From positions 1 to 41,390 of the forward strand of contig JACOVP010000005.1 of the NCBI GenBank assembly GCA_016177265.1: a stretch of 41,390 nt of DNA. Direction: 5' to 3'. Numbering within the stretch: position 1 is the first letter of the stretch; each line of letters begins with the position of its first letter. A model generated the notes under the pieces. The model did not search any database. It was given only the letters and a program-made list of their open reading frames with translations, and had not been told where the DNA came from. The DNA is from Candidatus Woesearchaeota archaeon. GTDB taxonomy: Archaea; Nanobdellota; Nanobdellia; SCGC-AAA011-G17; UBA489. Below, one piece after another: positions 30,268 to 37,713 of the stretch. Position numbers and translations under genes: made by a program.

Positions 30268-30507
30268 TGAGACAGAAAACCTAGAGTGTGAAAAGAGTCC
30301 TCTCTCTCATGCTCATAGTCATAGGAACCGGGTAGGGTGGGTTTTCTGCTATGTCTTTTCCCTAACACCTCTTTTCCCCACTCTACCTCTTCCTTGACAA
30401 TTCTGGTCTTGGTGCATTCCAGTTCAAGGCTTATAGCCTGGCCCGTGCTCGAAAACTGATAGCTGGCGGACTGTCCTCCAGGTAGCCCCGTTACCACAAG
30501 TGCGTGG

Positions 30508-30532
30508 GGGGTAGTGGGCTGGACTCTACCCC
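30508..30532 (+). repeat. Perfect 7-bp stem hairpin upstream of the integrase start
   Basis: GGGGTAG (30508-30514) pairs with CTACCCC (30526-30532) across an 11-nt loop. Confidence 0.6.
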
Positions 30533-30582
30533 AGGGTGGGGGAATGGTAGTGACAGGATCTGCTCGGGGGAGGAACGAGACC

Positions 30583-32040
30583 ATGGAGATCGAGTACATT
30601 GACGTGAACGAGGTGGAGAAACGCTTCAGGCAGGCGCTGGCGAGGTTTGAGCAACGGCCGGACGTGAGCGAGGGGAACAAGGAGCTGCTCAAGCGGTTTC
30701 TGCGGGAATCATTCTTGGGGAAGACGAATCCTGGGCGGGCGAAGAAGCGAGTCGGCTTCTCGCGACTGCAGGGCTACTTGAACTACCTGTCGACCTTGAT
30801 CCGGTTCGTCCGCAAGGACCTGGACCAGGTGACGCAGGGAGACATGGAGGGCTTCATCGAGGCGCTCGAGCGGAATGAGATCCTGTCCATCCGGCCCATC
30901 ATGTATGGTCGTTCAGGATGGAAGGTCGCGAACACCCCCTTCAGCAAGAGCCACAAGCTCCACCTCAAGATGGCTGTCCGGAAGTTCTATCGGTGGCTCC
31001 TGGGCAACAATCGGGAATACCCGCCCCTGGTGGACTGGATTGAAGTGCTCCCTGTGCACCAGGAGATCCCTGCGCTCACGGAGGAGGAGGTCAGGCAGCT
31101 GCTCGGAGCCTGTTCAAGGACCGTGCACCGCGCCCTGATCCAGATGCTCTTTGACGGTGGCTTTCGGATCGCGGAGCTCCTGAATGTGCGGCTGTGTCAT
31201 GTCCAGCTCCAGTGCGTCGACGAGGAGGCCGGGCGGAAGTGCTTCCTCGTCCGCATCCCCTTCTCGAAGACCATGCCGCGAACCATTGTTCTCCCCATGG
31301 AGACCACGACCCGATGGTTGTCCTTGTGGCTCGCAGAGCATCCTGCGCAACCTGAAGTCCGGGAGGATGGCACGATCCAGTGCGACCAACTCCAAGCCCA
31401 GCTCTTTCCCATGCCGGTGAAGCGAGCTCGCACCATCCTGAAGACAGCAGGGAAACGGGCTCTGGCCAAGCGGGTCTATCCCCACCTGATCCGCCACACC
31501 TCTGCCACTTACTGGGCGAACCGCCTTCCCTACTTCAAGTTCTGCAAGCGCTTCGGCTGGACATTGACGAGCAAGATGCCCCAGCGCTACATCGACCGCC
31601 AAGGGATTGATGACCTGGACGTGGCCAGGATCTATCGGCAGACCAAGACGCCGCGGCAACCCCAGAGTGCTCCATCACTGCCATGTCCCGCGCTTGAACG
31701 GGAGGAACCTGACCCTCGCCAGACCGTTGAAGCGGATGGCCCCCCTCCACTACTGAATGAAAGGAGTGAGGGTCGAGGGCGAGCTCCAACACCGCAGGCG
31801 CCACCTCATAGTGACCTCGAACGCCTCGAGCGTCTCGGCCAGGTGCTGTTGCAGGAGCTGTGGCGACTGAAGGATGGGCAGACCGAAAACGGAACACCGG
31901 CAGAACGGGCAACAACCCTCAATACTACGCCCGTCGACGCATCGGAGGGAATGGATAGACGCCCCCGTGAACCGCTCCCTCCATGGACAACAAATCATCG
32001 GCAGGTTGTGAAGCAACAACGGAGCGTCGGATCCTGGTGA
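30583..32040 (+). CDS. Tyrosine recombinase / integrase with long Pro/Arg-rich C-terminal tail
   Basis: The catalytic pattern is present: GFRIAELLNVR (Arg), HLIRHTSATYW (HxxR) and MPQRYIDRQG (Tyr). GGAGG lies about 10 nt upstream of ATG 30583. The track start at 30514 is GTG. Confidence 0.85.
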   Translation: MEIEYIDVNEVEKRFRQALARFEQRPDVSEGNKELLKRFLRESFLGKTNPGRAKKRVGFSRLQGYLNYLSTLIRFVRKDLDQVTQGDMEGFIEALERNEILSIRPIMYGRSGWKVANTPFSKSHKLHLKMAVRKFYRWLLGNNREYPPLVDWIEVLPVHQEIPALTEEEVRQLLGACSRTVHRALIQMLFDGGFRIAELLNVRLCHVQLQCVDEEAGRKCFLVRIPFSKTMPRTIVLPMETTTRWLSLWLAEHPAQPEVREDGTIQCDQLQAQLFPMPVKRARTILKTAGKRALAKRVYPHLIRHTSATYWANRLPYFKFCKRFGWTLTSKMPQRYIDRQGIDDLDVARIYRQTKTPRQPQSAPSLPCPALEREEPDPRQTVEADGPPPLLNERSEGRGRAPTPQAPPHSDLERLERLGQVLLQELWRLKDGQTENGTPAERATTLNTTPVDASEGMDRRPREPLPPWTTNHRQVVKQQRSVGSW

Positions 32041-32100
32041 ACCACGTGCCGCAGAATGCGCGGGATGAAGAGAACGCATGTCCTTCTCAGCCCGCGAGCG

Positions 32101-32355
32101 CTAGAATTTGTACGCATCGTGGCGGTGCCGAAGCGACCGAATGAACAGTTCATCAGAAGCACGGTCATGGTCGACGAACAGGCGGTAGGAACCGATGCGG
32201 ATCTTTCCGAAGTCAACACCCTCAAGATGCTCGATGTAACGGAGGACGTCCTTGGCGATGTCCCTGTGAAGCTTCTTGAGAATCCGTGCGCGGACATGGT
32301 GCTCAAGCTTATCTAAGGTGTCTTGAGCTTCCGGACCCCATCTAATCGACGTCAT
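32101..32355 (-). CDS. RelE/ParE-superfamily toxin
   Basis: The 84 aa product has the pattern IGSYRLFVDHD...LFIRSLRHRHDAY typical of RelE/ParE toxins. An ATGA overlap links it to the upstream antitoxin gene. Confidence 0.7.
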   Translation of the reverse strand: MTSIRWGPEAQDTLDKLEHHVRARILKKLHRDIAKDVLRYIEHLEGVDFGKIRIGSYRLFVDHDRASDELFIRSLRHRHDAYKF

Positions 32356-32564
32356 TGCACGTCGTACTTCTTGATCAGGTCCTCGTTGCTCACAAACTCA
32401 GTTCGTTTACGACGACGCGATGCTGCGACTTCGGCAATCACATCGTCCGCCACGCGGAGGTCGTCTTCGTTGACAGCGTCCTGCATGAGGAGGCGGAGCT
32501 GACGAACTTCTTTCCGGAGGCCGTGCAGTTCGCGGTGGACTTGCTGGAGCGTTACCGTTGTCAT
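32352..32564 (-). CDS. Putative antitoxin partner of the RelE-like toxin
   Basis: The 70 aa helical protein is translationally coupled upstream of the toxin. A TATA-like box (32585-32595) lies 26 nt upstream of the ATG. Confidence 0.6.
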   Translation of the reverse strand: MTTVTLQQVHRELHGLRKEVRQLRLLMQDAVNEDDLRVADDVIAEVAASRRRKRTEFVSNEDLIKKYDVQ

Positions 32565-32584
32565 GAAACTCTGGAAGAGGCGCT

Positions 32585-32595
32585 CCTATAAAAAG
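32585..32595 (-). promoter_or_regulatory. TATA-like box for the island antitoxin-toxin operon
   Basis: CTTTTTATAGG on the minus strand lies about 26 nt upstream of ATG 32564. It is an isolated A/T patch in GC-rich DNA. Confidence 0.45.
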
Positions 32596-32689
32596 ATTAC
32601 GCTTGGCGCTAGGAAGGAGAGCGAGCATCTCAGGTGATGGCTTATAAGGAATGGATCGACCGAAGGGCGAATAGTGAGAACCCTGTCCG

Positions 32690-34669
32690 ATGAACATGCC
32701 ATCCCTGCTGCGAAAACTCGAACCCCTCCTTCCAAGAGAAGTGAAACGGTGGCGTCTGATGCTTCCGTTGGTGAACGAGGACACGAGGAAACTCCTGGAG
32801 CGCCAGATCATCAGCCTAGCCCACAAGCATCTTGGGAATCACAACCAGCGGCTCTTGCTGCCACCTCCGCCAGAGAAGCTGTCCAAGGGCACGTTCAACC
32901 TCGGCACGATCCTCTATGACACGGAGAAGTGGTCATTCGCCTTGACGGAAGGAGAGCTGCTGCAGAACCTTGCCATCTTCGGTCGTTCTGGTGCAGGAAA
33001 AACGAATGTGGTCTTCCATCTCCTCCAGCAGTTTCTCAAGAAAGGCATCCCGTTCCTCTTCTTCGATTGGAAACGGACAGCACGCCATCTCCTTCCTCTC
33101 TTGAAGCACCCGGTGTTGCTCTACACGCCAGGACGAAAACTCGCTCCCTTTCCCTTCAACACCTTGATCCCGCCACCTGGTCTTGAACAGCATCTCCACG
33201 TGCAGCAGGTCCTGGACATCCTGGCAGCGGCCTACACCCTGGGTGACGGTGCCACGAGTCTCATCCAGCGCGTCCTCCAGGAATGGTACACGAAGAACGC
33301 AACACCGCCCATGATCCATGACCTCGTCCAAGAACTGCAATGCCTGAATGTGAAAGGTCGGGCTCACGGGTGGCATGCTTCGGCGGTGCGTGCACTCCAA
33401 AGTCTGGACTATGCTGACCTCGTTACTTCCACTGCTGAAGATCAGGAGGCCAGGGTCGACGAACTCCTCCACCACTCGACGATCCTCGAGCTCAATGGTC
33501 TGGGCGACAACGCGAAGCAGTTCCTCATTCCATCCATGCTCCTCTGGATCTTCAACGCCCGCCTCGCCAGGAGTGACCGAGAGCAGCTCCGCTTCGTGGT
33601 CATCGTGGAAGAGGCACACCACCTGCTCTACACGCGGAAGGGCCAGGAGTCCGCGATGGAACGCTTGGTCCGTCAATGTCGGGAGCTGGGCATCGCCATG
33701 GTCATCGTCGACCAGCACCCCCACTTGATTTCCAGCGCTGCCCTGGGTAATACCTTCACCACGATCTGCCTGAACCTCAAAGATCCCCGGGACATGAATC
33801 GTGCTGCTGCCCTCTGCCTCCTCGATGAAGAGGACCGTGGACACTTGAGCACGCTGCCCGTTGGTCATGGGATTGTGAAGCTCCAGAACCGCTGGCACCA
33901 ACCCTTCCTCGTTCGATTCCCTCTGGTGCAGGTGGAGAAGGGAGCAGTCACCAATGATCGCCTTCACGCCTTCCTCATTGGCAAGAGACCACGTTCGGGA
34001 CGAAAACCGCCTTTGTCGTTGAAGGAAGAGGGCGTTCGGCAGGTTCGGTTTGTGGATGTCATTCCTTCAGAGGATGCATGCCGTCTGATCGAGGATTGTG
34101 TCCTCCATCCCTTTGACGGGGTGAAGGCACGCTACCAACGCCTGAGTTGGAGTGCGGATAAGGGAACGAGGCTGGTGAGGGAGCTGGTGGCTGCAGGACT
34201 CCTGGAGTTGGAAAGGGTTGACCTTGGCACCACGAGGAAGACCTTGCTTCGGCCCAGTCGCAGTGCTAGGCTCGCCCTTGGCCTTGACCACCATCCCCAG
34301 CATGAGTCCATCGCCCATGAGTTTTGGAAGTACCACGTCGCTGCCCAGTTTCTGGAAGCGGAGTACCAGGTCGAGATCGAGGCTCCTCGTCCAAGGGGAG
34401 GAGGACGGGTGGACGTGCTGGCCAGGAAGGGCGAGGAATCTGTTGCCATCGAAGTCGAGACTGGGAAGAGTGACGTGGTGGGGAACGTGAAAGCTGACCT
34501 GGCAGCGGGGTTCACCAGGGTGGTGGTTATCGCCACGGATGATGTTGCGAGGGAGTCCATCGAGCGACAGCTAGGGAGGGCTGGACTGCTGATGACAGAA
34601 CGAGTGATCGTCGCCGACTTGGACATGGTCCTCCGTCACCCGGCGATAGACTACCGGAGGAAGCCCTAA
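32690..34669 (+). CDS. HerA/FtsK-like (DUF87-type) P-loop ATPase fused to winged-helix and PD-(D/E)xK-like nuclease modules
   Basis: It has Walker A GRSGAGKT (32981-33004), Walker B FVVIVEEAH and VIVDQHP. The C-terminal part reads GVKARYQRL...LVRELVAAGLL (wHTH-like) followed by VDVLA...AIEVETGKS (nuclease-like). Confidence 0.85.
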   Translation: MNMPSLLRKLEPLLPREVKRWRLMLPLVNEDTRKLLERQIISLAHKHLGNHNQRLLLPPPPEKLSKGTFNLGTILYDTEKWSFALTEGELLQNLAIFGRSGAGKTNVVFHLLQQFLKKGIPFLFFDWKRTARHLLPLLKHPVLLYTPGRKLAPFPFNTLIPPPGLEQHLHVQQVLDILAAAYTLGDGATSLIQRVLQEWYTKNATPPMIHDLVQELQCLNVKGRAHGWHASAVRALQSLDYADLVTSTAEDQEARVDELLHHSTILELNGLGDNAKQFLIPSMLLWIFNARLARSDREQLRFVVIVEEAHHLLYTRKGQESAMERLVRQCRELGIAMVIVDQHPHLISSAALGNTFTTICLNLKDPRDMNRAAALCLLDEEDRGHLSTLPVGHGIVKLQNRWHQPFLVRFPLVQVEKGAVTNDRLHAFLIGKRPRSGRKPPLSLKEEGVRQVRFVDVIPSEDACRLIEDCVLHPFDGVKARYQRLSWSADKGTRLVRELVAAGLLELERVDLGTTRKTLLRPSRSARLALGLDHHPQHESIAHEFWKYHVAAQFLEAEYQVEIEAPRPRGGGRVDVLARKGEESVAIEVETGKSDVVGNVKADLAAGFTRVVVIATDDVARESIERQLGRAGLLMTERVIVADLDMVLRHPAIDYRRKP

Positions 34670-35307
34670 TGGAAACTACATACCGTGTTATCGACTTGAC
34701 GGTTAACTTCGAGAAGCGGCGATTGATCCTCCACGAGATCGAGGCCAATAAACAAGCTCTTCTCGAGCTCCTGAACCCACAAGGAGGATACAATATTGGC
34801 ATCCGAAAGGAGGCTCTCATCCTTGATTTCGCGGCGGGTCGCTTCATCGCGGAGGAGACCGGGATCATTGCTTTCCATTTTCGTGGCGCTACTATCCAAA
34901 AAGTCCAGCAACCCATTATTGCATGTACATCGCACATTTGCGAGACCTTAGGCTGGCCCAGAAACAATGAACCAATCTCCGTGAACATAGAAATCGTCTC
35001 CGAGACGACTAAAGCAAACGCTGGTTCATTTACTGCGAAGCATCTAGATGTTCCCGCCCTAGAAACCCTCCTGTCGCAGAAGATTCCCCATGCTGGGCTG
35101 ACGCTCTTCCTAACGCCATTGGATACGCAACGACCACGAGAAGATGTGCGGGTGAGAATTGAGCCACTGGCCAAGGAGCCGCATCAGAAGCTCTACGTTC
35201 GCCTCTCATTGGACGCAGAGGACACGCGAATCGCCAAAATCGAAGCGCATCTGGCTAGGTGCGATACACTTCTCGGGCAGATACAGGAGGCGATAAGCGC
35301 ATCATGA
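34669..35307 (+). CDS. Hypothetical protein (operon gene 2)
   Basis: The 212 aa ORF has an ATG that overlaps the ATPase stop (TAATG). I recognise no motifs. Confidence 0.65.
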   Translation: METTYRVIDLTVNFEKRRLILHEIEANKQALLELLNPQGGYNIGIRKEALILDFAAGRFIAEETGIIAFHFRGATIQKVQQPIIACTSHICETLGWPRNNEPISVNIEIVSETTKANAGSFTAKHLDVPALETLLSQKIPHAGLTLFLTPLDTQRPREDVRVRIEPLAKEPHQKLYVRLSLDAEDTRIAKIEAHLARCDTLLGQIQEAISAS

Positions 35308-36272
35308 GCGTTGAACGTAGAGTGACGTTGAGATTAGGGACACTCGGCGCGAGGCAGAACAGTGGGATATCTAGATGGAAGGCGGTAAGCGAGCTGGAGG
35401 ATTGGAAAGCTTTAAGAACTCTGTTGACGAGGGAAACTGTTGGATCAAAGGCATGGGAGGAGGGCCGGCGATTTGGGGAGAGTAATACACTTACGGCACG
35501 TGAACGGATGATGGAGAAGCTCGAGGATGGGAGGACAGAGGACAAAGCGCTTTACGTCGCGCTTATTCAGAAGTATGAGAAGGAGTTGCGCACTAGGGCT
35601 GTGGCCGGGGAAAACAACATAGAGAGAGAGGCGTGCATCACCCATCTAGGAGTGCTCTACGATGACAAGCCGCAGGCACTGCAGGAGTATGGGGATGTGG
35701 ATCGACAGATCCTAGAGCAGATTCTGAAAGAAGGTGGACCATTTAGACAAATCCGGTCGGTCTTTCTGGCATTGCGCAGGAGACTAGAGAAGGGGAGTGG
35801 GTTCACGTGTGCGGAGCTTGAGCAGATCCTCGAAGGTGAGCGAGTCGTCATGCCGTCAACGACGCATATGGATCCGTTTGTGCGTAGGCGCGGTAGTCGA
35901 CTGCAGGAAGAGGGCTATAGATTGTTGCTGCGGTACTTCGGTGGGAAAGTAGGGGTAAAGGTGAAGGTGTATTCCGTGCGCGAGTATCATGCTGTATGTG
36001 AGAGAGGCGACCCGGATTGGTTGATTCGAGGAGAAGAAGGGACGGTGGAAGCACGAGCATTTAGAGCGTTGCGTTCCTTCGCGGGGATGCTGGAGAGCAT
36101 GAGAGCCTGGAATAGGGTGGAAGCATCGCTGCGTACGAGGGATCCAAGCCTGAGGGAAATGCGGGGGTGGGAAGTGAAAGAGACGATGGAGCGTCTGTTT
36201 GAGCGGGTCCGCAAGGGGGTAGAGGCGAAGTATAAGAGATGGGAGGAGTTTTGGCGGGGAGTGCGGAGATAA
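35304..36272 (+). CDS. Hypothetical Arg/Glu-rich helical protein (operon gene 3)
   Basis: It is 322 aa from ATG 35304, which overlaps the upstream stop (ATGA). The track start at 35259 is GTG. I recognise no motifs. Confidence 0.65.
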   Translation: MSVERRVTLRLGTLGARQNSGISRWKAVSELEDWKALRTLLTRETVGSKAWEEGRRFGESNTLTARERMMEKLEDGRTEDKALYVALIQKYEKELRTRAVAGENNIEREACITHLGVLYDDKPQALQEYGDVDRQILEQILKEGGPFRQIRSVFLALRRRLEKGSGFTCAELEQILEGERVVMPSTTHMDPFVRRRGSRLQEEGYRLLLRYFGGKVGVKVKVYSVREYHAVCERGDPDWLIRGEEGTVEARAFRALRSFAGMLESMRAWNRVEASLRTRDPSLREMRGWEVKETMERLFERVRKGVEAKYKRWEEFWRGVRR

Positions 36273-36727
36273 TGATCGCGGTGGATTCCGATGTCTTCTT
36301 GTCCGCGAAAGTGTTCAGCGGAAAGGATGAGAGGTCGAGGAAGAGCAACGAGTTTCTGGTTGCGGTCACCGGAGGGAATATGTGCACGACAGTGATTAAT
36401 GTTTTTGAGGTGTGTGGCGTTGCCGGTCCACATCTTGAGGAGGAGGAGCTACGGAAGTGGTTGCATAACTTTCGCGGGACGTTTGGTGTACAGATTCTGT
36501 TGCCGCGAGACGCGGCTCTTCCGCTTGGTTCCTTCTTTCGGATCTTGCCAACAATATTATTTGGTAAGCTTCACAAGGGGATGCGGTTTGGAGATGCTTT
36601 GATAATAGGAATTGTGGAAGGACATCCTGAGATACGAGAATTTGTTACGTGGAATGTGAAGGATTTCGATGGGAGGACGCGTCTGCGAGTGTCATCGCCA
36701 GCGGATTACTTGGCACGGGTGAGGTGA
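36272..36727 (+). CDS. PIN-domain nuclease (VapC-like; operon gene 4)
   Basis: It is 151 aa from ATG 36272, which overlaps the upstream stop (TAATG). The PIN acidic pattern is IAVDSDVF, VFEVCG, FGDALIIG and TWNVKDFD. Confidence 0.75.
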   Translation: MIAVDSDVFLSAKVFSGKDERSRKSNEFLVAVTGGNMCTTVINVFEVCGVAGPHLEEEELRKWLHNFRGTFGVQILLPRDAALPLGSFFRILPTILFGKLHKGMRFGDALIIGIVEGHPEIREFVTWNVKDFDGRTRLRVSSPADYLARVR

Positions 36728-36781
36728 CTGACTGGGGGGAGGCGAGATTCAGGGGATCATGGGAGGCACGGTGCTGTGGGG

Positions 36782-36792
36782 AGTGAGGGGGT
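36782..36792 (+). repeat. 11-bp direct repeat, right copy, 55 nt after the PIN gene stop
   Basis: AGTGAGGGGGT is identical to 30257-30267. Confidence 0.6.
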
Positions 36793-37071
36793 GAAGGGAG
36801 CATCTCAGCGAAACCTTTTTTAAGGATGACGCCGTGCCAAGTGCATGGGCCATGTCGAGTCAGGGAGAGTCCCGCAGTATGCGCAGGAGTTGTTGAAGTC
36901 AGTTCGAGAGAAGACGTGCTACCCTCTGGTCTGGCGACAACAACCCGGCCTCGGTCACGATTCGGAAGTCAAGGTTGCCCGTCCTGGCGAGAGATGCCAT
37001 GTGTTGCTCTACCGGCCTGAGTACCGGGACTACGAGCTCCACTTCGTGGTCAGGATCAGGGAAGAGCGTGA

Positions 37072-37713
37072 TCAACACGTTCCTCGTCGGCCAATACCTG
37101 CAACGAGGTGGCAGGGCTTGGGTGTGCGGATGACCTGGTAGAGGAGAGTTGCGAGCCGTTCCATCTCGCAGGTGATCGCGCGAATCTGTGGTTCAGTGAT
37201 TCCGTCCCAATAATATGCGAGGCGGCCGAGGACGCCGGTGACCCAGCACCCGATGGCATCGGACAGCTCAGGTTCCCTTGCCTCAAGATCCTGCCACCAA
37301 CGTGCGCGAACCTTGAGATCCTGGTCCTGGGCGATCGTCCGCCAGATCAAGTCGCGGGTGACAAGCGGATTTTCTTCATCTATAAACCCTCGCTCAATAT
37401 AAACCACCTTCTTTTTTTCTCGTTTGAACAAAAACTCATAATAGGCGGACTCATCTGTATCTTGAAATCTCCCCCATCTAGTGACATCAAAAAGAAGTAC
37501 ATAGTCAAATCGTTGTTCTTTAGTATATTGAAACAATGCTAAAAATCCAGGTCTATTTGCGTTTAGACCAGTCTTGCCGGCGTCTTGAAACTCTTTGATG
37601 ATACGGATGTTATGTTTCTTAGCAAATTTTTGGACTTCTTCTCTTTGAACGGGTATTGAGAACTCTTGTTTGTCCTCTGCAGAGTGACGATAATATGCTA
37701 CAGCTGTTTTCAT
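37072..37713 (-). CDS. Serine recombinase (resolvase/invertase catalytic domain); the 3' half lies in the high-GC block, so the gene is possibly chimeric or truncated
   Basis: The N-terminus reads AVAYYRHSAEDKQEFSIPVQ (catalytic Ser region), then DAGKTGLNANRPGF and LLFDVTRWGRF. A TATA-like box lies 26 nt upstream of the ATG. Composition switches inside the ORF at about 37368, and I see no recognisable DNA-binding domain after that point. Confidence 0.6.
   Translation of the reverse strand: MKTAVAYYRHSAEDKQEFSIPVQREEVQKFAKKHNIRIIKEFQDAGKTGLNANRPGFLALFQYTKEQRFDYVLLFDVTRWGRFQDTDESAYYEFLFKREKKKVVYIERGFIDEENPLVTRDLIWRTIAQDQDLKVRARWWQDLEAREPELSDAIGCWVTGVLGRLAYYWDGITEPQIRAITCEMERLATLLYQVIRTPKPCHLVAGIGRRGTC

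What the first reader, a model, noticed from the sequence alone, without database searches (positions are those of the whole stretch)
32690..34669. HerA/FtsK-like ATPase fused to winged-helix and PD-(D/E)xK-like nuclease modules
The N-terminal approximately 420 aa carry Walker A GRSGAGKT (aa 98-105), Walker B VVIVEE (aa 303-308) and VIVDQHP. This resembles DUF87/HerA-type translocases. The C-terminal approximately 200 aa contain a wHTH-like segment (aa ~475-515, GVKARYQRLSWSADKGTRLVRELVAAGLLELERV). A pattern then follows that fits a restriction-endonuclease-like core: HESIAHEF, D575 in VDVLA, E588/E590 and K593 in AIEVETGKS. Having translocase and nuclease in a single polypeptide is unusual. 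HerA normally partners with a separate nuclease.
Basis: partly seen in the sequence, partly recalled or inferred. Interest (0 to 1): 0.75.

Follow-up and report, generated by a model that had tools for sequence, protein, structure and literature searches.

The report
Fused DNA motor–nuclease on mobile island
The gene encodes one protein that joins an ATP-driven DNA-pumping motor, a DNA-binding winged helix and a DNA-cutting domain; it belongs to a large, unstudied family found mostly on mobile islands of planctomycete bacteria, and here it sits in a foreign DNA island inside a contig assigned to a tiny archaeon.

Summary
ORF 32690..34669 (+, 659 aa) has the stated Walker A, Walker B and DQHP motifs. 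Confident AlphaFold models (pLDDT 87.8 and 91.5) show four parts: a HerA/DndH-type ATPase, a disordered linker, a MarR-like winged helix (aa 458-530) and an alpha-beta-beta-beta-alpha-beta restriction-endonuclease-fold domain (aa 538-650). E564, D575, E588 and E590 are invariant down to 32% identity. K593 is not, so the site is a BamHI-type E..D..ExE variant.

The fusion is a conserved family: 478 loci in GTDB species genomes, mostly Planctomycetota, annotated only as DUF87 or ATP-binding. It is absent from IMG/VR, PLSDB and INPHARED. Family-wide, a small ORF overlaps the ATPase start and a tandem winged-helix gene usually lies upstream. In the window's subclade a tyrosine integrase takes the small ORF's place.

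Here the gene lies in a roughly 7-kb, 55-60% GC island in a 40% GC Woesearchaeota contig. My best reading (about 0.45) is a compact DndH-like motor-nuclease used in DNA conflict and carried by integrative islands. The main rival (about 0.3) is an element DNA-processing or mobility protein. Translocase-nuclease fusions are already known (DndH), so this is a new variant of a known kind.

The parts
32690..34669 (+). ATPase-wH-nuclease gene (659 aa). The start at 32690 is supported by the family alignment; public calls start at 32759 (M24).
32690..32884 (+). N-terminal three-helix domain (aa 1-65), with conserved K9, L10, P12, L13, P15, W21. It is not a HAS-barrel. Role unknown; possibly a partner-docking surface.
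32885..33949 (+). FtsK/HerA-superfamily (DndH-C-like) ATPase core, aa 66-420, with an all-helical insert at aa 165-262.
32981..33004 (+). Walker A, GRSGAGKT (aa 98-105).
33596..33613 (+). Walker B, VVIVEE (aa 303-308).
33671..33721 (+). RQCRELG (invariant R328 and R331; arginine-finger candidates) and VIVDQHP (aa 338-344). These align with HerA's REGRKFG and SQRP.
33950..34060 (+). Poorly conserved linker (aa 421-457; pLDDT below 50 for aa 432-454; 30% mean pairwise identity).
34061..34279 (+). MarR-like winged helix (aa 458-530): three helices plus a beta-hairpin wing, with a conserved DGV..RY.RL..S...G.R.K signature.
34301..34639 (+). PD-(D/E)xK-fold nuclease domain (aa 538-650). Invariant residues are H543, W546, E564, D575, E588, E590, T591, G592, S594 and N599; K593 is variable.
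30514..32040 (+). Tyrosine integrase (PF00589, 1.4e-10). In the closest relatives its stop overlaps the ATPase start.
32101..32564 (-). ParE-like toxin (32101..32355) and a small antitoxin-like ORF (32352..32564), lying between the integrase and the ATPase in this island only.
34669..36727 (+). Three orphan ORFs (212, 322 and 151 aa) joined to the ATPase by overlapping stop/start codons (TAATG, ATGA, TAATG). They have no family hits and no counterpart in 89 related loci.
30300..37370 (.). Approximate extent of the GC-rich island (52-62% GC) in a contig of about 40% GC. No att repeats were found.
37072..37713 (-). Serine-recombinase ORF whose Resolvase match stops at aa 116, exactly at the GC break (about 37,370). 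The gene is truncated or fused at the island edge.

Best explanation
The protein is a self-contained DNA translocase-endonuclease.

An FtsK/HerA-superfamily ATPase, closest in fold to the C-terminal motor of DndH/DptH and presumably a hexameric ring, hydrolyses ATP to move along or pump double-stranded DNA. On a flexible linker of about 35 residues, each subunit carries a MarR-like winged helix that holds DNA and a metal-dependent PD-(D/E)xK nuclease that cuts it. The nuclease has a BamHI-type E564/D575/E588/E590 active site.

Shown here: the domain folds, the motifs and their conservation, the fusion as a conserved family, and residence in mobile or variable islands.

Inferred: hexamer formation, DNA translocation and nuclease activity.

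The role I consider most likely is DNA conflict. The gene would be the effector of a compact DndH-like 'HerA/FtsK capture' or restriction-type system carried by integrative islands. It would work with a small upstream partner protein and, in most loci, a tandem winged-helix protein, and it would intercept and cleave foreign or competing DNA. In the window's subclade the module is reduced to integrase plus this gene. Here it also has three orphan genes translationally coupled downstream.

The confidence given (0.45) is for the whole statement including the conflict role. The molecular description alone (motor + winged helix + active nuclease) I put at about 0.85.
For: Architecture and catalytic residues.

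ATPase relatives:
- The closest structural relative per target length is the DndH C-domain (7es4: TM 0.76, rmsd 3.5 A over 388 columns).
- The best full-domain HMMs are Mad8 of the MADS defence system (6.8e-14) and DndH (1.4e-9).
- Distant plasmid relatives lie in dynamin-ATPase-HNH operons.

Family-wide core:
- A small ORF overlaps the ATPase start (63 of 80 loci), and this also holds in the 32-34% identity clade.
- A tandem MarR-like wH protein accompanies it in 57 of 80 loci. This recalls the multi-wHTH DndG-like partners of capture systems (PMC10853773).

Neighbours are often defence-type genes:
- TIR and ThsB_TIR, FRG, and Mrr_cat
- BsuBI/PstI restriction endonuclease with an Eco57I-type methylase
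- an MmeI-like enzyme and DUF4365
- N6/N4 methyltransferases inside the operon in about a third of loci

Other points:
- Integrase and ATPase divergence correlate only weakly (Spearman 0.17), as expected for a module shuffled among islands.
- There is no membrane segment, and no transfer or capsid genes were seen.
Against: - No curated defence model is matched at family level, and the partners cl1 and cl2 hit nothing in PADLOC.
- ArdC anti-restriction genes sit inside the same operon in 8 loci, and DNA methyltransferases are absent from two thirds of loci, so no general self/non-self marking is evident.
- In the window's subclade the integrase stop overlaps the ATPase start in three unrelated contexts. 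This looks like functional coupling to recombination rather than cargo.
- Several divergent copies coexist in one genome, as for element backbone genes.
- The winged helix is not hypervariable, unlike typical defence sensors.
- No activity has been measured.
Confidence: 0.45

Rival explanations
1. Element DNA-processing or mobility protein. The motor-wH-nuclease acts on the island's own DNA together with the tyrosine recombinase. Possible modes: recognising a site on the excised circle, nicking or cutting it and pumping it (as with relaxase-helicase fusions, or a T4CP plus a MOB_C restriction-endonuclease-fold relaxase, or TraB of actinomycete elements); or controlling or resolving recombinase intermediates (as in FtsK-XerCD, or a RuvAB-RuvC-style motor plus junction nuclease).
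For: - Integrase-ATPase overlap in L002, L085 and L086, with only these genes shared (83% nucleotide identity over 3.6 kb between L002 and L085).
- A conserved backbone order, with anti-restriction and establishment genes (ArdC, orphan methyltransferases, RadC) inserted between cl2 and cl1.
- Multiple divergent copies per genome, often on short contigs.
- The best NCBIfam hit is CedD, a VirD4-like DNA-transfer ATPase (2.2e-16; PMC11823120).
- MOB_C relaxases are PD-(D/E)xK enzymes (PMC12857230).
- The commonest weak Pfam hits for the nuclease are Holliday-junction-resolvase-like families (AHJR-like in 14 of 30 members, Hjc in 4 of 30).
- The wH is moderately conserved, which fits a conserved target.
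Against: - No TM anchor.
- No T4SS, pilus or capsid genes in the flanks.
- No att repeats or tRNA targets could be defined.
- About half of the loci with full 10-kb flanks have no integrase of this family nearby, and integrase and ATPase co-diverge only weakly.
- The divergent clade has no integrase nearby and sits beside restriction genes.
- The CedD score (59.7 bits) is far below the cutoff of 600.
Confidence: 0.3
2. Recombination or repair helper of the HerA-NurA or RuvABC kind. A motor with a structure-specific nuclease would resect ends or resolve branched DNA for the host or element, without a conflict role.
For: - HerA is the best sequence match in the PDB.
- There are weak AHJR, Hjc and NucS similarities.
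- The active-site residues are invariant.
Against: - No HAS-barrel and no NurA, Mre11 or Rad50 neighbours.
- The distribution is patchy and multi-copy, and the genes sit in variable islands rather than a conserved housekeeping locus.
Confidence: 0.08
3. Genome-packaging enzyme of a virus or satellite: an FtsK/HerA packaging ATPase with its own nuclease, analogous to a terminase.
For: - PHROG 2666, annotated 'terminase large subunit', matches at 2.6e-12 over aa 302-383.
- BFVD fold hits include packaging ATPases of PH1, corticoviruses and A32-like enzymes.
Against: - No family member in 2.9 million IMG/VR contigs or in INPHARED phages.
- Viral fold hits are no better than cellular HerA/DndH hits.
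- No capsid or other virion genes were recognised in the flanks.
Confidence: 0.04
4. The nuclease domain is catalytically dead and serves only as a DNA-binding or oligomerisation module. The canonical lysine is missing.
For: E590 replaces the canonical Lys and K593 is dispensable.
Against: - Four acidic residues are invariant down to 32% identity.
- They reproduce the active BamHI/OkrAI tetrad of Glu77, Asp94, Glu111 and Glu113 (PMC3025578).
Confidence: 0.08

Closest known systems
DndH/DptH (restriction component of DndFGH/DptFGH)
   Same: A REase-fold nuclease and a HerA/FtsK ATPase in one polypeptide. The ATPase is the best per-target fold match (7es4: TM 0.76). HTH-type DNA-binding domains are present, and a separate multi-wHTH partner (DndG) resembles cl2 in kind (PMC10853773).
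   Different: DndH is about 1,500-1,700 aa, with its REase N-terminal to the motor plus SF2-C, TRD and inactive-MTase domains. It works with DndF and DndG. Here the protein is 659 aa, the order is motor-wH-REase, no DndF/G homologs are present, and only profile positions 1357-1636 of 1715 match.
'HerA/FtsK capture' systems (Orc/Cdc6 + iREase + REase + HerA/FtsK + wHTH; PMC10853773)
   Same: The same domain vocabulary (HerA/FtsK, wHTH, active REase) in single or multiple polypeptides, on mobile neighbourhoods with features of both mobile elements and defence.
   Different: No Orc/Cdc6 ATPase or inactive REase was seen. The partners are instead a small coiled-coil protein and a tandem wH protein. 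I found no description of this exact fusion.
HerA-NurA and the anti-phage HerA complexes (Sir2-HerA, DUF4297-HerA, TdpAB)
   Same: A HerA-type motor coupled to a DNA- or NAD-degrading effector. These give the best PDB sequence and fold matches.
   Different: Those effectors are separate proteins docking on a HAS-barrel. Here there is no HAS-barrel, and the nuclease is tethered covalently by a linker.
BamHI/OkrAI active-site type within PD-(D/E)xK
   Same: An E..D..ExE tetrad with Glu in place of the usual Lys (E564/D575/E588/E590 against Glu77/Asp94/Glu111/Glu113; PMC3025578).
   Different: There is no detectable sequence or specific fold relationship to BamHI. The nearest weak hits are Cas4, AHJR/Hjc, CoiA, Mrr, AF1548, Bax1 and the R2 endonuclease.
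FtsK-XerCD, TraB, and T4CP + MOB_C relaxase (mobile-DNA processing analogues)
   Same: A motor of the same superfamily followed by a C-terminal winged helix (FtsK gamma, TraB), working with or beside a tyrosine recombinase or a REase-fold relaxase. CedD (VirD4-like) is the best NCBIfam hit.
   Different: No membrane anchor. FtsK_SpoIIIE and TraG/TrwB HMMs match only at E around 0.05. No T4SS context was seen. None of these proteins carries a nuclease on the motor chain.

Membership tests
FtsK-HerA superfamily of P-loop ATPases | RecA-like core with Walker A, Walker B and the (S/T/D)Q-x-P sensor motif after an Arg-rich helix; fold match to members | tested here: met
   GRSGAGKT, VVIVEE, RQCRELG and DQHP are invariant. 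The protein aligns to HerA's REGRKFG/SQRP. Foldseek gives HerA at 1.4e-15, DndH-C with TM 0.76 and TrwB at 2.8e-11.
HerA sensu stricto (HerA-NurA) | N-terminal HAS-barrel domain | tested here: not met
   The model shows three helices and one beta-hairpin before the P-loop strand. There is no HAS-barrel Pfam hit at E<=0.1.
HerA sensu stricto (HerA-NurA) | Adjacent NurA (and often Mre11/Rad50) genes; score above the curated HerA models | tested here: not met
   No such neighbours in the window or in 80 loci. NCBIfam HerA models score 25-39 bits against cutoffs of 800-970.
DndH/DptH | HerA/FtsK ATPase plus REase in one polypeptide | tested here: met
   Domain composition of DndH is taken from PMC10853773.
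DndH/DptH | Full architecture (SF2-C, HTH, TRDs, inactive MTase, REase, then ATPase; about 1,500-1,700 aa) with DndF and DndG partners | tested here: not met
   The protein is 659 aa. Only the ATPase part of the DndH profile matches (positions 1357-1636 of 1715). Neighbours do not hit DndF/G models.
PD-(D/E)xK nuclease superfamily | alpha-beta-beta-beta-alpha-beta core fold | tested here: met
   The core elements are H541-556, E560-566, E573-580, E583-590, H596-605 and E610-615, and they recur in the domain-only model (pLDDT 91.5). Fold hits are AF1548 (probability 1.00), Bax1 and the R2 endonuclease, but only at E around 1e-3.
PD-(D/E)xK nuclease superfamily | Conserved acidic residues at the start of beta2 and in beta3 | tested here: met
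   D575, E588 and E590 (plus E564 in beta1) are invariant in 44 homologs and in the 32-34% identity clade.
PD-(D/E)xK nuclease superfamily | Lysine in the (D/E)xK position | tested here: not met
   The Cas4 alignment places E590 at the Lys position. K593 is M, N, L or A in some members. A Glu at this position is a known active variant in BamHI (PMC3025578).
A specific Pfam/NCBIfam nuclease family (Cas4, Hjc/AHJR, Mrr_cat, CoiA, NucS) | Score above the curated threshold | tested here: not met
   All hits are sub-threshold: Cas4 15 bits against 65, and AHJR-like best E 0.0055 in 14 of 30 members. The four Cas4 cysteines are absent; aa 538-659 contain no Cys (sequence).
Winged helix-turn-helix (MarR-like) | Three-helix bundle plus beta-hairpin wing, superposable on known wHTH domains | tested here: met
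   The elements are H461-472, H478-485, H489-501, E505-512 and E515-522. MexR, ScpB and AF HTH regulators superpose at 2.3-2.9 A over 71-78 columns with probability 1.00.
Type IV coupling proteins (VirD4/TrwB/CedD) | N-terminal membrane anchor, T4SS/Ced gene context, score above family thresholds | tested here: not met
   The maximum Kyte-Doolittle 19-residue mean is 1.3. CedD scores 59.7 bits against 600, and the TraG/FtsK Pfam hits have E around 0.05. No T4SS genes are in the flanks.
MOB_C relaxases (TraX, CloDF13 MobC) | Homology to the MOB_C catalytic domain; oriT nicking | not testable with these tools
   No MOB_C profile appeared among the Pfam or NCBIfam hits. Nicking needs an experiment. 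The resemblance is at superfamily level only (PMC12857230).

The most novel reading that the evidence does not exclude
The protein is the mobility engine of a previously unrecognised class of small integrative elements. It would be an integrase-coupled, soluble FtsK/HerA-type motor that carries its own site- or structure-recognising winged helix and a junction- or nick-making nuclease. It would process the excised element, either as a fused 'coupling ATPase plus REase-fold relaxase' or as an FtsK-Xer-like or RuvABC-like partner of the tyrosine recombinase. One such planctomycete-type element would have crossed domains into a DPANN archaeon.
Probability: 0.27. Interest if true: 0.8.

Novelty: new variant of a known kind. 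Interest (0 to 1): 0.5.

Why it matters
This is a large protein family with no functional annotation: 478 loci in species-representative genomes. It packs motor, DNA reader and nuclease into 659 residues, which makes it a compact model for how HerA/FtsK motors are coupled to DNA cleavage. That question is currently studied in much larger, multi-subunit systems such as DndFGH, HerA-NurA and HerA-Sir2.

Its rare BamHI-type all-acidic active site, and in one subclade its translational coupling to a tyrosine integrase, give clear experimental handles.

If the archaeal placement is real, the window also documents a bacterial-type mobile island inside a DPANN genome.

Tried and rejected
- **att sites.** Direct and inverted repeats around the window island gave only chance-level 14-29-mers. 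Repeats bracketing Int..ATPase in 18 loci were only 12-15-mers. The ends of the 3.6-kb unit shared by L002 and L085 have no terminal repeats.
- **tRNA-targeted integration.** There are no tRNAs in the window, and tRNAs are rarely near the gene in 50 loci.
- **Remainder of the truncated serine recombinase at the left junction.** Absent.
- **Viral, plasmid or phage residence.** None in IMG/VR. PLSDB and INPHARED hold only 22-27% identical ATPase-only relatives.
- **Closer relatives of the window protein in JGI metagenomes.** None above 49% identity.
- **Partner proteins.** cl1 has no hit anywhere. cl2 gives only generic MarR/Csa3-type wHTH similarity and is not related to the protein's own wH by hhalign.
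- **Window downstream ORFs.** No hits in Pfam, NCBIfam, PHROGs or PADLOC, and no homologs in other loci.
- **A conjugation-like apparatus near the gene (L008, L062).** Not found; the neighbours include GrpE-like and Hsp70-like genes and another DUF87/TrwB-like ATPase.
- **Promoter and terminator scan.** Counts at chance level.
- **Integrase-ATPase co-divergence.** Weak.
- **C-terminal profile against 1.84 billion representatives.** It returned mainly the same family and fragments, with no new architectures among the top 150.
- **Iyer et al. 2004 (PMC521647).** The paper could not be read.
Full report
**1. Observation**

The ORF 32690..34669 (+) encodes 659 aa.
- Walker A GRSGAGKT, aa 98-105
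- Walker B VVIVEE, aa 303-308
- VIVDQHP, aa 338-344
- the wH string, aa 477-510
- HESIAHEF, aa 538-545
- D575, E588, E590 and K593

The gene is real. 756 database proteins match it, and the best 120 are full-length relatives of 617-711 aa at 46-60% identity. Public gene calls start at M24 (P0001, 636 aa). Residues 1-23 align with the conserved family N-terminus, so 32690 is the better start.

**2. ATPase module**

Sequence evidence:
- Pfam gives DUF87, the 'HerA central domain' (6.4e-7).
- PADLOC gives Mad8 (6.8e-14), several HerA models and DndH.
- NCBIfam gives CedD (2.2e-16), HerA, CedB and TraC, all far below their curated cutoffs.
- HerA is the best PDB sequence match, both for the single sequence and for the family profile, which also finds DptH over aa 87-344.

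Structural evidence. The full-length AlphaFold model is confident (pLDDT 87.8). It matches HerA 4d2i at 1.4e-15 and the DndH C-domain 7es4 with TM 0.76 and 3.5 A rmsd, and it matches TrwB more weakly.

The RQCRELG and DQHP motifs align with HerA's REGRKFG and SQRP. There is no HAS-barrel: three helices and one hairpin precede the P-loop. There is also no membrane segment. The motor is therefore an FtsK-HerA superfamily member of the DndH-like kind, not HerA proper and not a membrane-anchored coupling protein.

**3. C-terminal modules**

After a disordered, poorly conserved linker (aa 421-457), a domain-only model (pLDDT 91.5, pTM 0.84) shows two units:
- a three-helix plus beta-hairpin unit (aa 458-530);
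- an alpha-beta-beta-beta-alpha-beta unit (aa 538-650).

Foldseek hits are individually weak (E around 1e-3) but coherent. MarR, MexR, ScpB and ArsR winged helices match the first unit at 2.3-2.9 A rmsd. The REase-fold proteins AF1548, Bax1 and the R2 restriction-like endonuclease match the second.

A family profile aligns to Cas4 4r5q, with H543 on His, D575 on Asp and E588-x-E590 on E-x-K. Across 30 members, the only recurrent Pfam hits belong to the PD-(D/E)xK clan, all sub-threshold:
- AHJR-like, 14 of 30
- CoiA_nuc, 7
- Hjc, 4
- PDDEXK_9, 4
- Mrr_cat, 2
- NucS_C, 1

H543, W546, E564, D575, E588, E590, T591, G592, S594 and N599 are invariant in 44 homologs. They are also invariant in a clade only 32-34% identical. 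K593 varies (M, N, L, A). The catalytic set is thus E564/D575/E588/E590. This is the rare Glu-for-Lys variant documented for BamHI and OkrAI (Glu77/Asp94/Glu111/Glu113; PMC3025578).

**4. The family and its context**

Distribution. A scan of one genome per GTDB species found 478 confirmed loci. Most are in Planctomycetota (Phycisphaerae, Pirellulales, Brocadiales). Several genomes carry multiple copies, and many copies lie on short contigs. Copies within one genome are 64-86% identical in DNA.

Conserved module. Clustering ORFs from 80 loci and annotating them gives this order:
- a tyrosine integrase (25 loci);
- a small Zn-ribbon ORF on the opposite strand;
- a tandem MarR-like winged-helix protein (cl2; 57 loci);
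- optionally N6/N4 DNA methyltransferases, ArdC and RadC;
- a 140-aa coiled-coil protein (cl1; 63 loci) whose stop overlaps the ATPase start;
- the ATPase.

The divergent clade also has a small ORF overlapping the ATPase start. There the gene lies beside an MmeI-like enzyme and a DUF4365 protein, without an integrase. Other neighbours include TIR/ThsB, FRG and Mrr and a BsuBI/PstI restriction endonuclease with an Eco57I-type methylase.

The window's subclade. The three closest relatives (58-60% identity) lack cl1 and cl2. In all three contexts, which are otherwise unrelated, a 403-aa integrase ends four bases inside the ATPase gene. L002 and L085 share only this 3.6-kb unit, at 83% nucleotide identity.

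Family-wide, integrase and ATPase divergence correlate only weakly (Spearman 0.17; 68 of 2000 permutations reach it). About half of the loci with full flanks have no integrase of this family within 10 kb.

The family is absent from IMG/VR. On PLSDB plasmids and INPHARED phages only 22-27% identical ATPase-only relatives occur, some of them in dynamin-ATPase-HNH operons.

**5. The window**

The contig belongs to a Candidatus Woesearchaeota MAG and has about 40% GC. The region from about 30.3 to 37.37 kb has 52-62% GC. It holds:
- the integrase;
- a ParE-like toxin-antitoxin pair on the opposite strand;
- the ATPase;
- three orphan genes joined to the ATPase by overlapping stop/start codons.

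The right GC break coincides with the end of the Resolvase-domain match of a serine-recombinase ORF. The rest of that gene is not at the left junction.

An independent Logan contig reproduces 31203..37243 at 100% identity but stops short of both junctions. Real cross-domain insertion and assembly chimera therefore cannot be told apart here. AT-rich host-like DNA on both sides would require two misjoins, which mildly favours a real insertion. A 'Nanoarchaeia' contig carrying the family (L048) is uniformly GC-rich and is probably mis-binned.

**6. Mechanism**

Shown: folds, motifs, conservation, fusion and island residence.

Inferred from the FtsK-HerA superfamily and PD-(D/E)xK enzymology: a ring-shaped motor that moves on dsDNA using ATP, with six tethered wH-nuclease heads that bind and cut DNA in a two-metal reaction.

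On biological role, I place about 0.45 on a DNA-conflict function, meaning a compact DndH-like 'capture' or restriction system carried by integrative islands. Reasons:
- the motor is closest to DndH and Mad8;
- the family-wide core is a small partner plus the effector, usually with a multi-wH protein;
- the neighbours are often defence genes;
- integrases are shuffled relative to the ATPase;
- no transfer genes were seen.

I place about 0.3 on element DNA processing or mobility. Reasons:
- integrase-ATPase translational coupling in the window's subclade;
- a backbone-like gene order, with ArdC and methyltransferases inserted inside the operon;
- multiple lineages per genome;
- a conserved rather than hypervariable wH;
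- weak junction-resolvase-like similarities.

Repair, packaging and inactive-domain readings take the remainder.

**7. Comparison and novelty**

[quoted passage not shown] 'HerA/FtsK capture' systems mix HerA/FtsK, wHTH and REase domains in one or several polypeptides on mobile neighbourhoods. HerA/FtsK genes also occur in mobile operons with tyrosine recombinases (PMC10853773). The fusion as such is therefore not unprecedented.

What is new relative to what I could find:
- this specific compact order, motor-wH-REase;
- its BamHI-type active site;
- its partners;
- its abundance in Planctomycetota;
- the integrase-coupled two-gene form.

Literature searches returned no description of it, and databases name it only 'DUF87' or 'ATP-binding protein'. 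I rate it a new variant of a known kind, with interest 0.5.

**8. Unexplained**

- DNA homology between L002 and L085 stops about 110 nt before the ATPase stop, at the codons for D-L-A-A-G (window position about 34,509). L002 carries a 75-bp orphan copy of the preceding nuclease-motif segment 433 bp downstream.
- Four other loci have 3' ATPase fragments downstream, with different breakpoints. This may reflect recombination between elements at this conserved patch. No site-specific core could be defined.

Noticed in passing
window 30300-37370 (whole island) and contig flanks: The contig is assigned to a Candidatus Woesearchaeota (DPANN archaeon) MAG with about 40% GC. The island has 52-62% GC, and its genes' relatives are mainly planctomycete. 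This is either a cross-domain insertion or a chimeric contig. An independent Logan contig matches 31203..37243 at 100% but ends before both junctions.
   Followed up: partly
window 37072-37713 (-): The Resolvase-domain match of this serine-recombinase ORF ends at aa 116, exactly at the GC break (about 37,370). The C-terminal 97 aa are read from island DNA. The missing part of the gene is not at the left junction.
   Followed up: yes
window 32101-32564 (-): A ParE-like toxin (Pfam 7.6e-5) and a 70-aa antitoxin-like ORF with overlapping stop/start codons lie between the integrase and the ATPase. In the closest relatives those two genes overlap directly.
   Followed up: partly
window 34669-36727 (+): Three orphan ORFs (212, 322 and 151 aa) are chained to the ATPase by TAATG, ATGA and TAATG overlaps. 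Each is a singleton cluster in the 15-billion-protein collection. None matches any library or any of 89 related loci. The 151-aa protein looks PIN-like by eye, but Pfam does not support this.
   Followed up: partly
L027:19040-21083; also L008, L026, L040, L054: A nuclease-less paralog (ATPase plus winged helix, about 555-630 aa, 24% identical) is preceded by a Cys-rich 133-aa protein. It lies 6-8 kb from the main gene in five loci. In L008 it is followed by GrpE-like and Hsp70-like genes.
   Followed up: partly
L002:10250-10345; L014, L020, L021, L081: Orphan fragments of the ATPase 3' end lie downstream of full-length copies. In L002 a 75-bp piece encoding ETVAIKVETGKSDVVANVKADLAA ends where the L002/L085 homology breaks.
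   Followed up: partly
L062:19021-21186 (-) (Planctomycetales bacterium ZRK34, complete genome): A separate 721-aa DUF87/TrwB_AAD_bind ATPase lies 7 kb downstream of the family member. A BsuBI/PstI restriction endonuclease with an Eco57I-type methylase and an FRG protein lie upstream.
   Followed up: no
L087 and L088 (Bacillus and Lactococcus plasmids): The nearest plasmid relatives of the ATPase domain are ATP-binding proteins of about 1,000 aa in conserved operons: dynamin, dynamin, two small ORFs, the ATPase, then an HNH endonuclease.
   Followed up: no
L048 (contig binned as Candidatus Nanoarchaeia): This contig is uniformly 51-60% GC with no AT-rich flanks. It is probably a mis-binned bacterial contig rather than a second archaeal host.
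   Followed up: partly
window 30514-32040 (+): The integrase ORF is 508 aa, against 403 aa in relatives. Its C-terminal part, roughly the last 110-140 aa, is a Pro/Gln/Arg-rich low-complexity extension. The listed GTG start may lie upstream of the true one.
   Followed up: no
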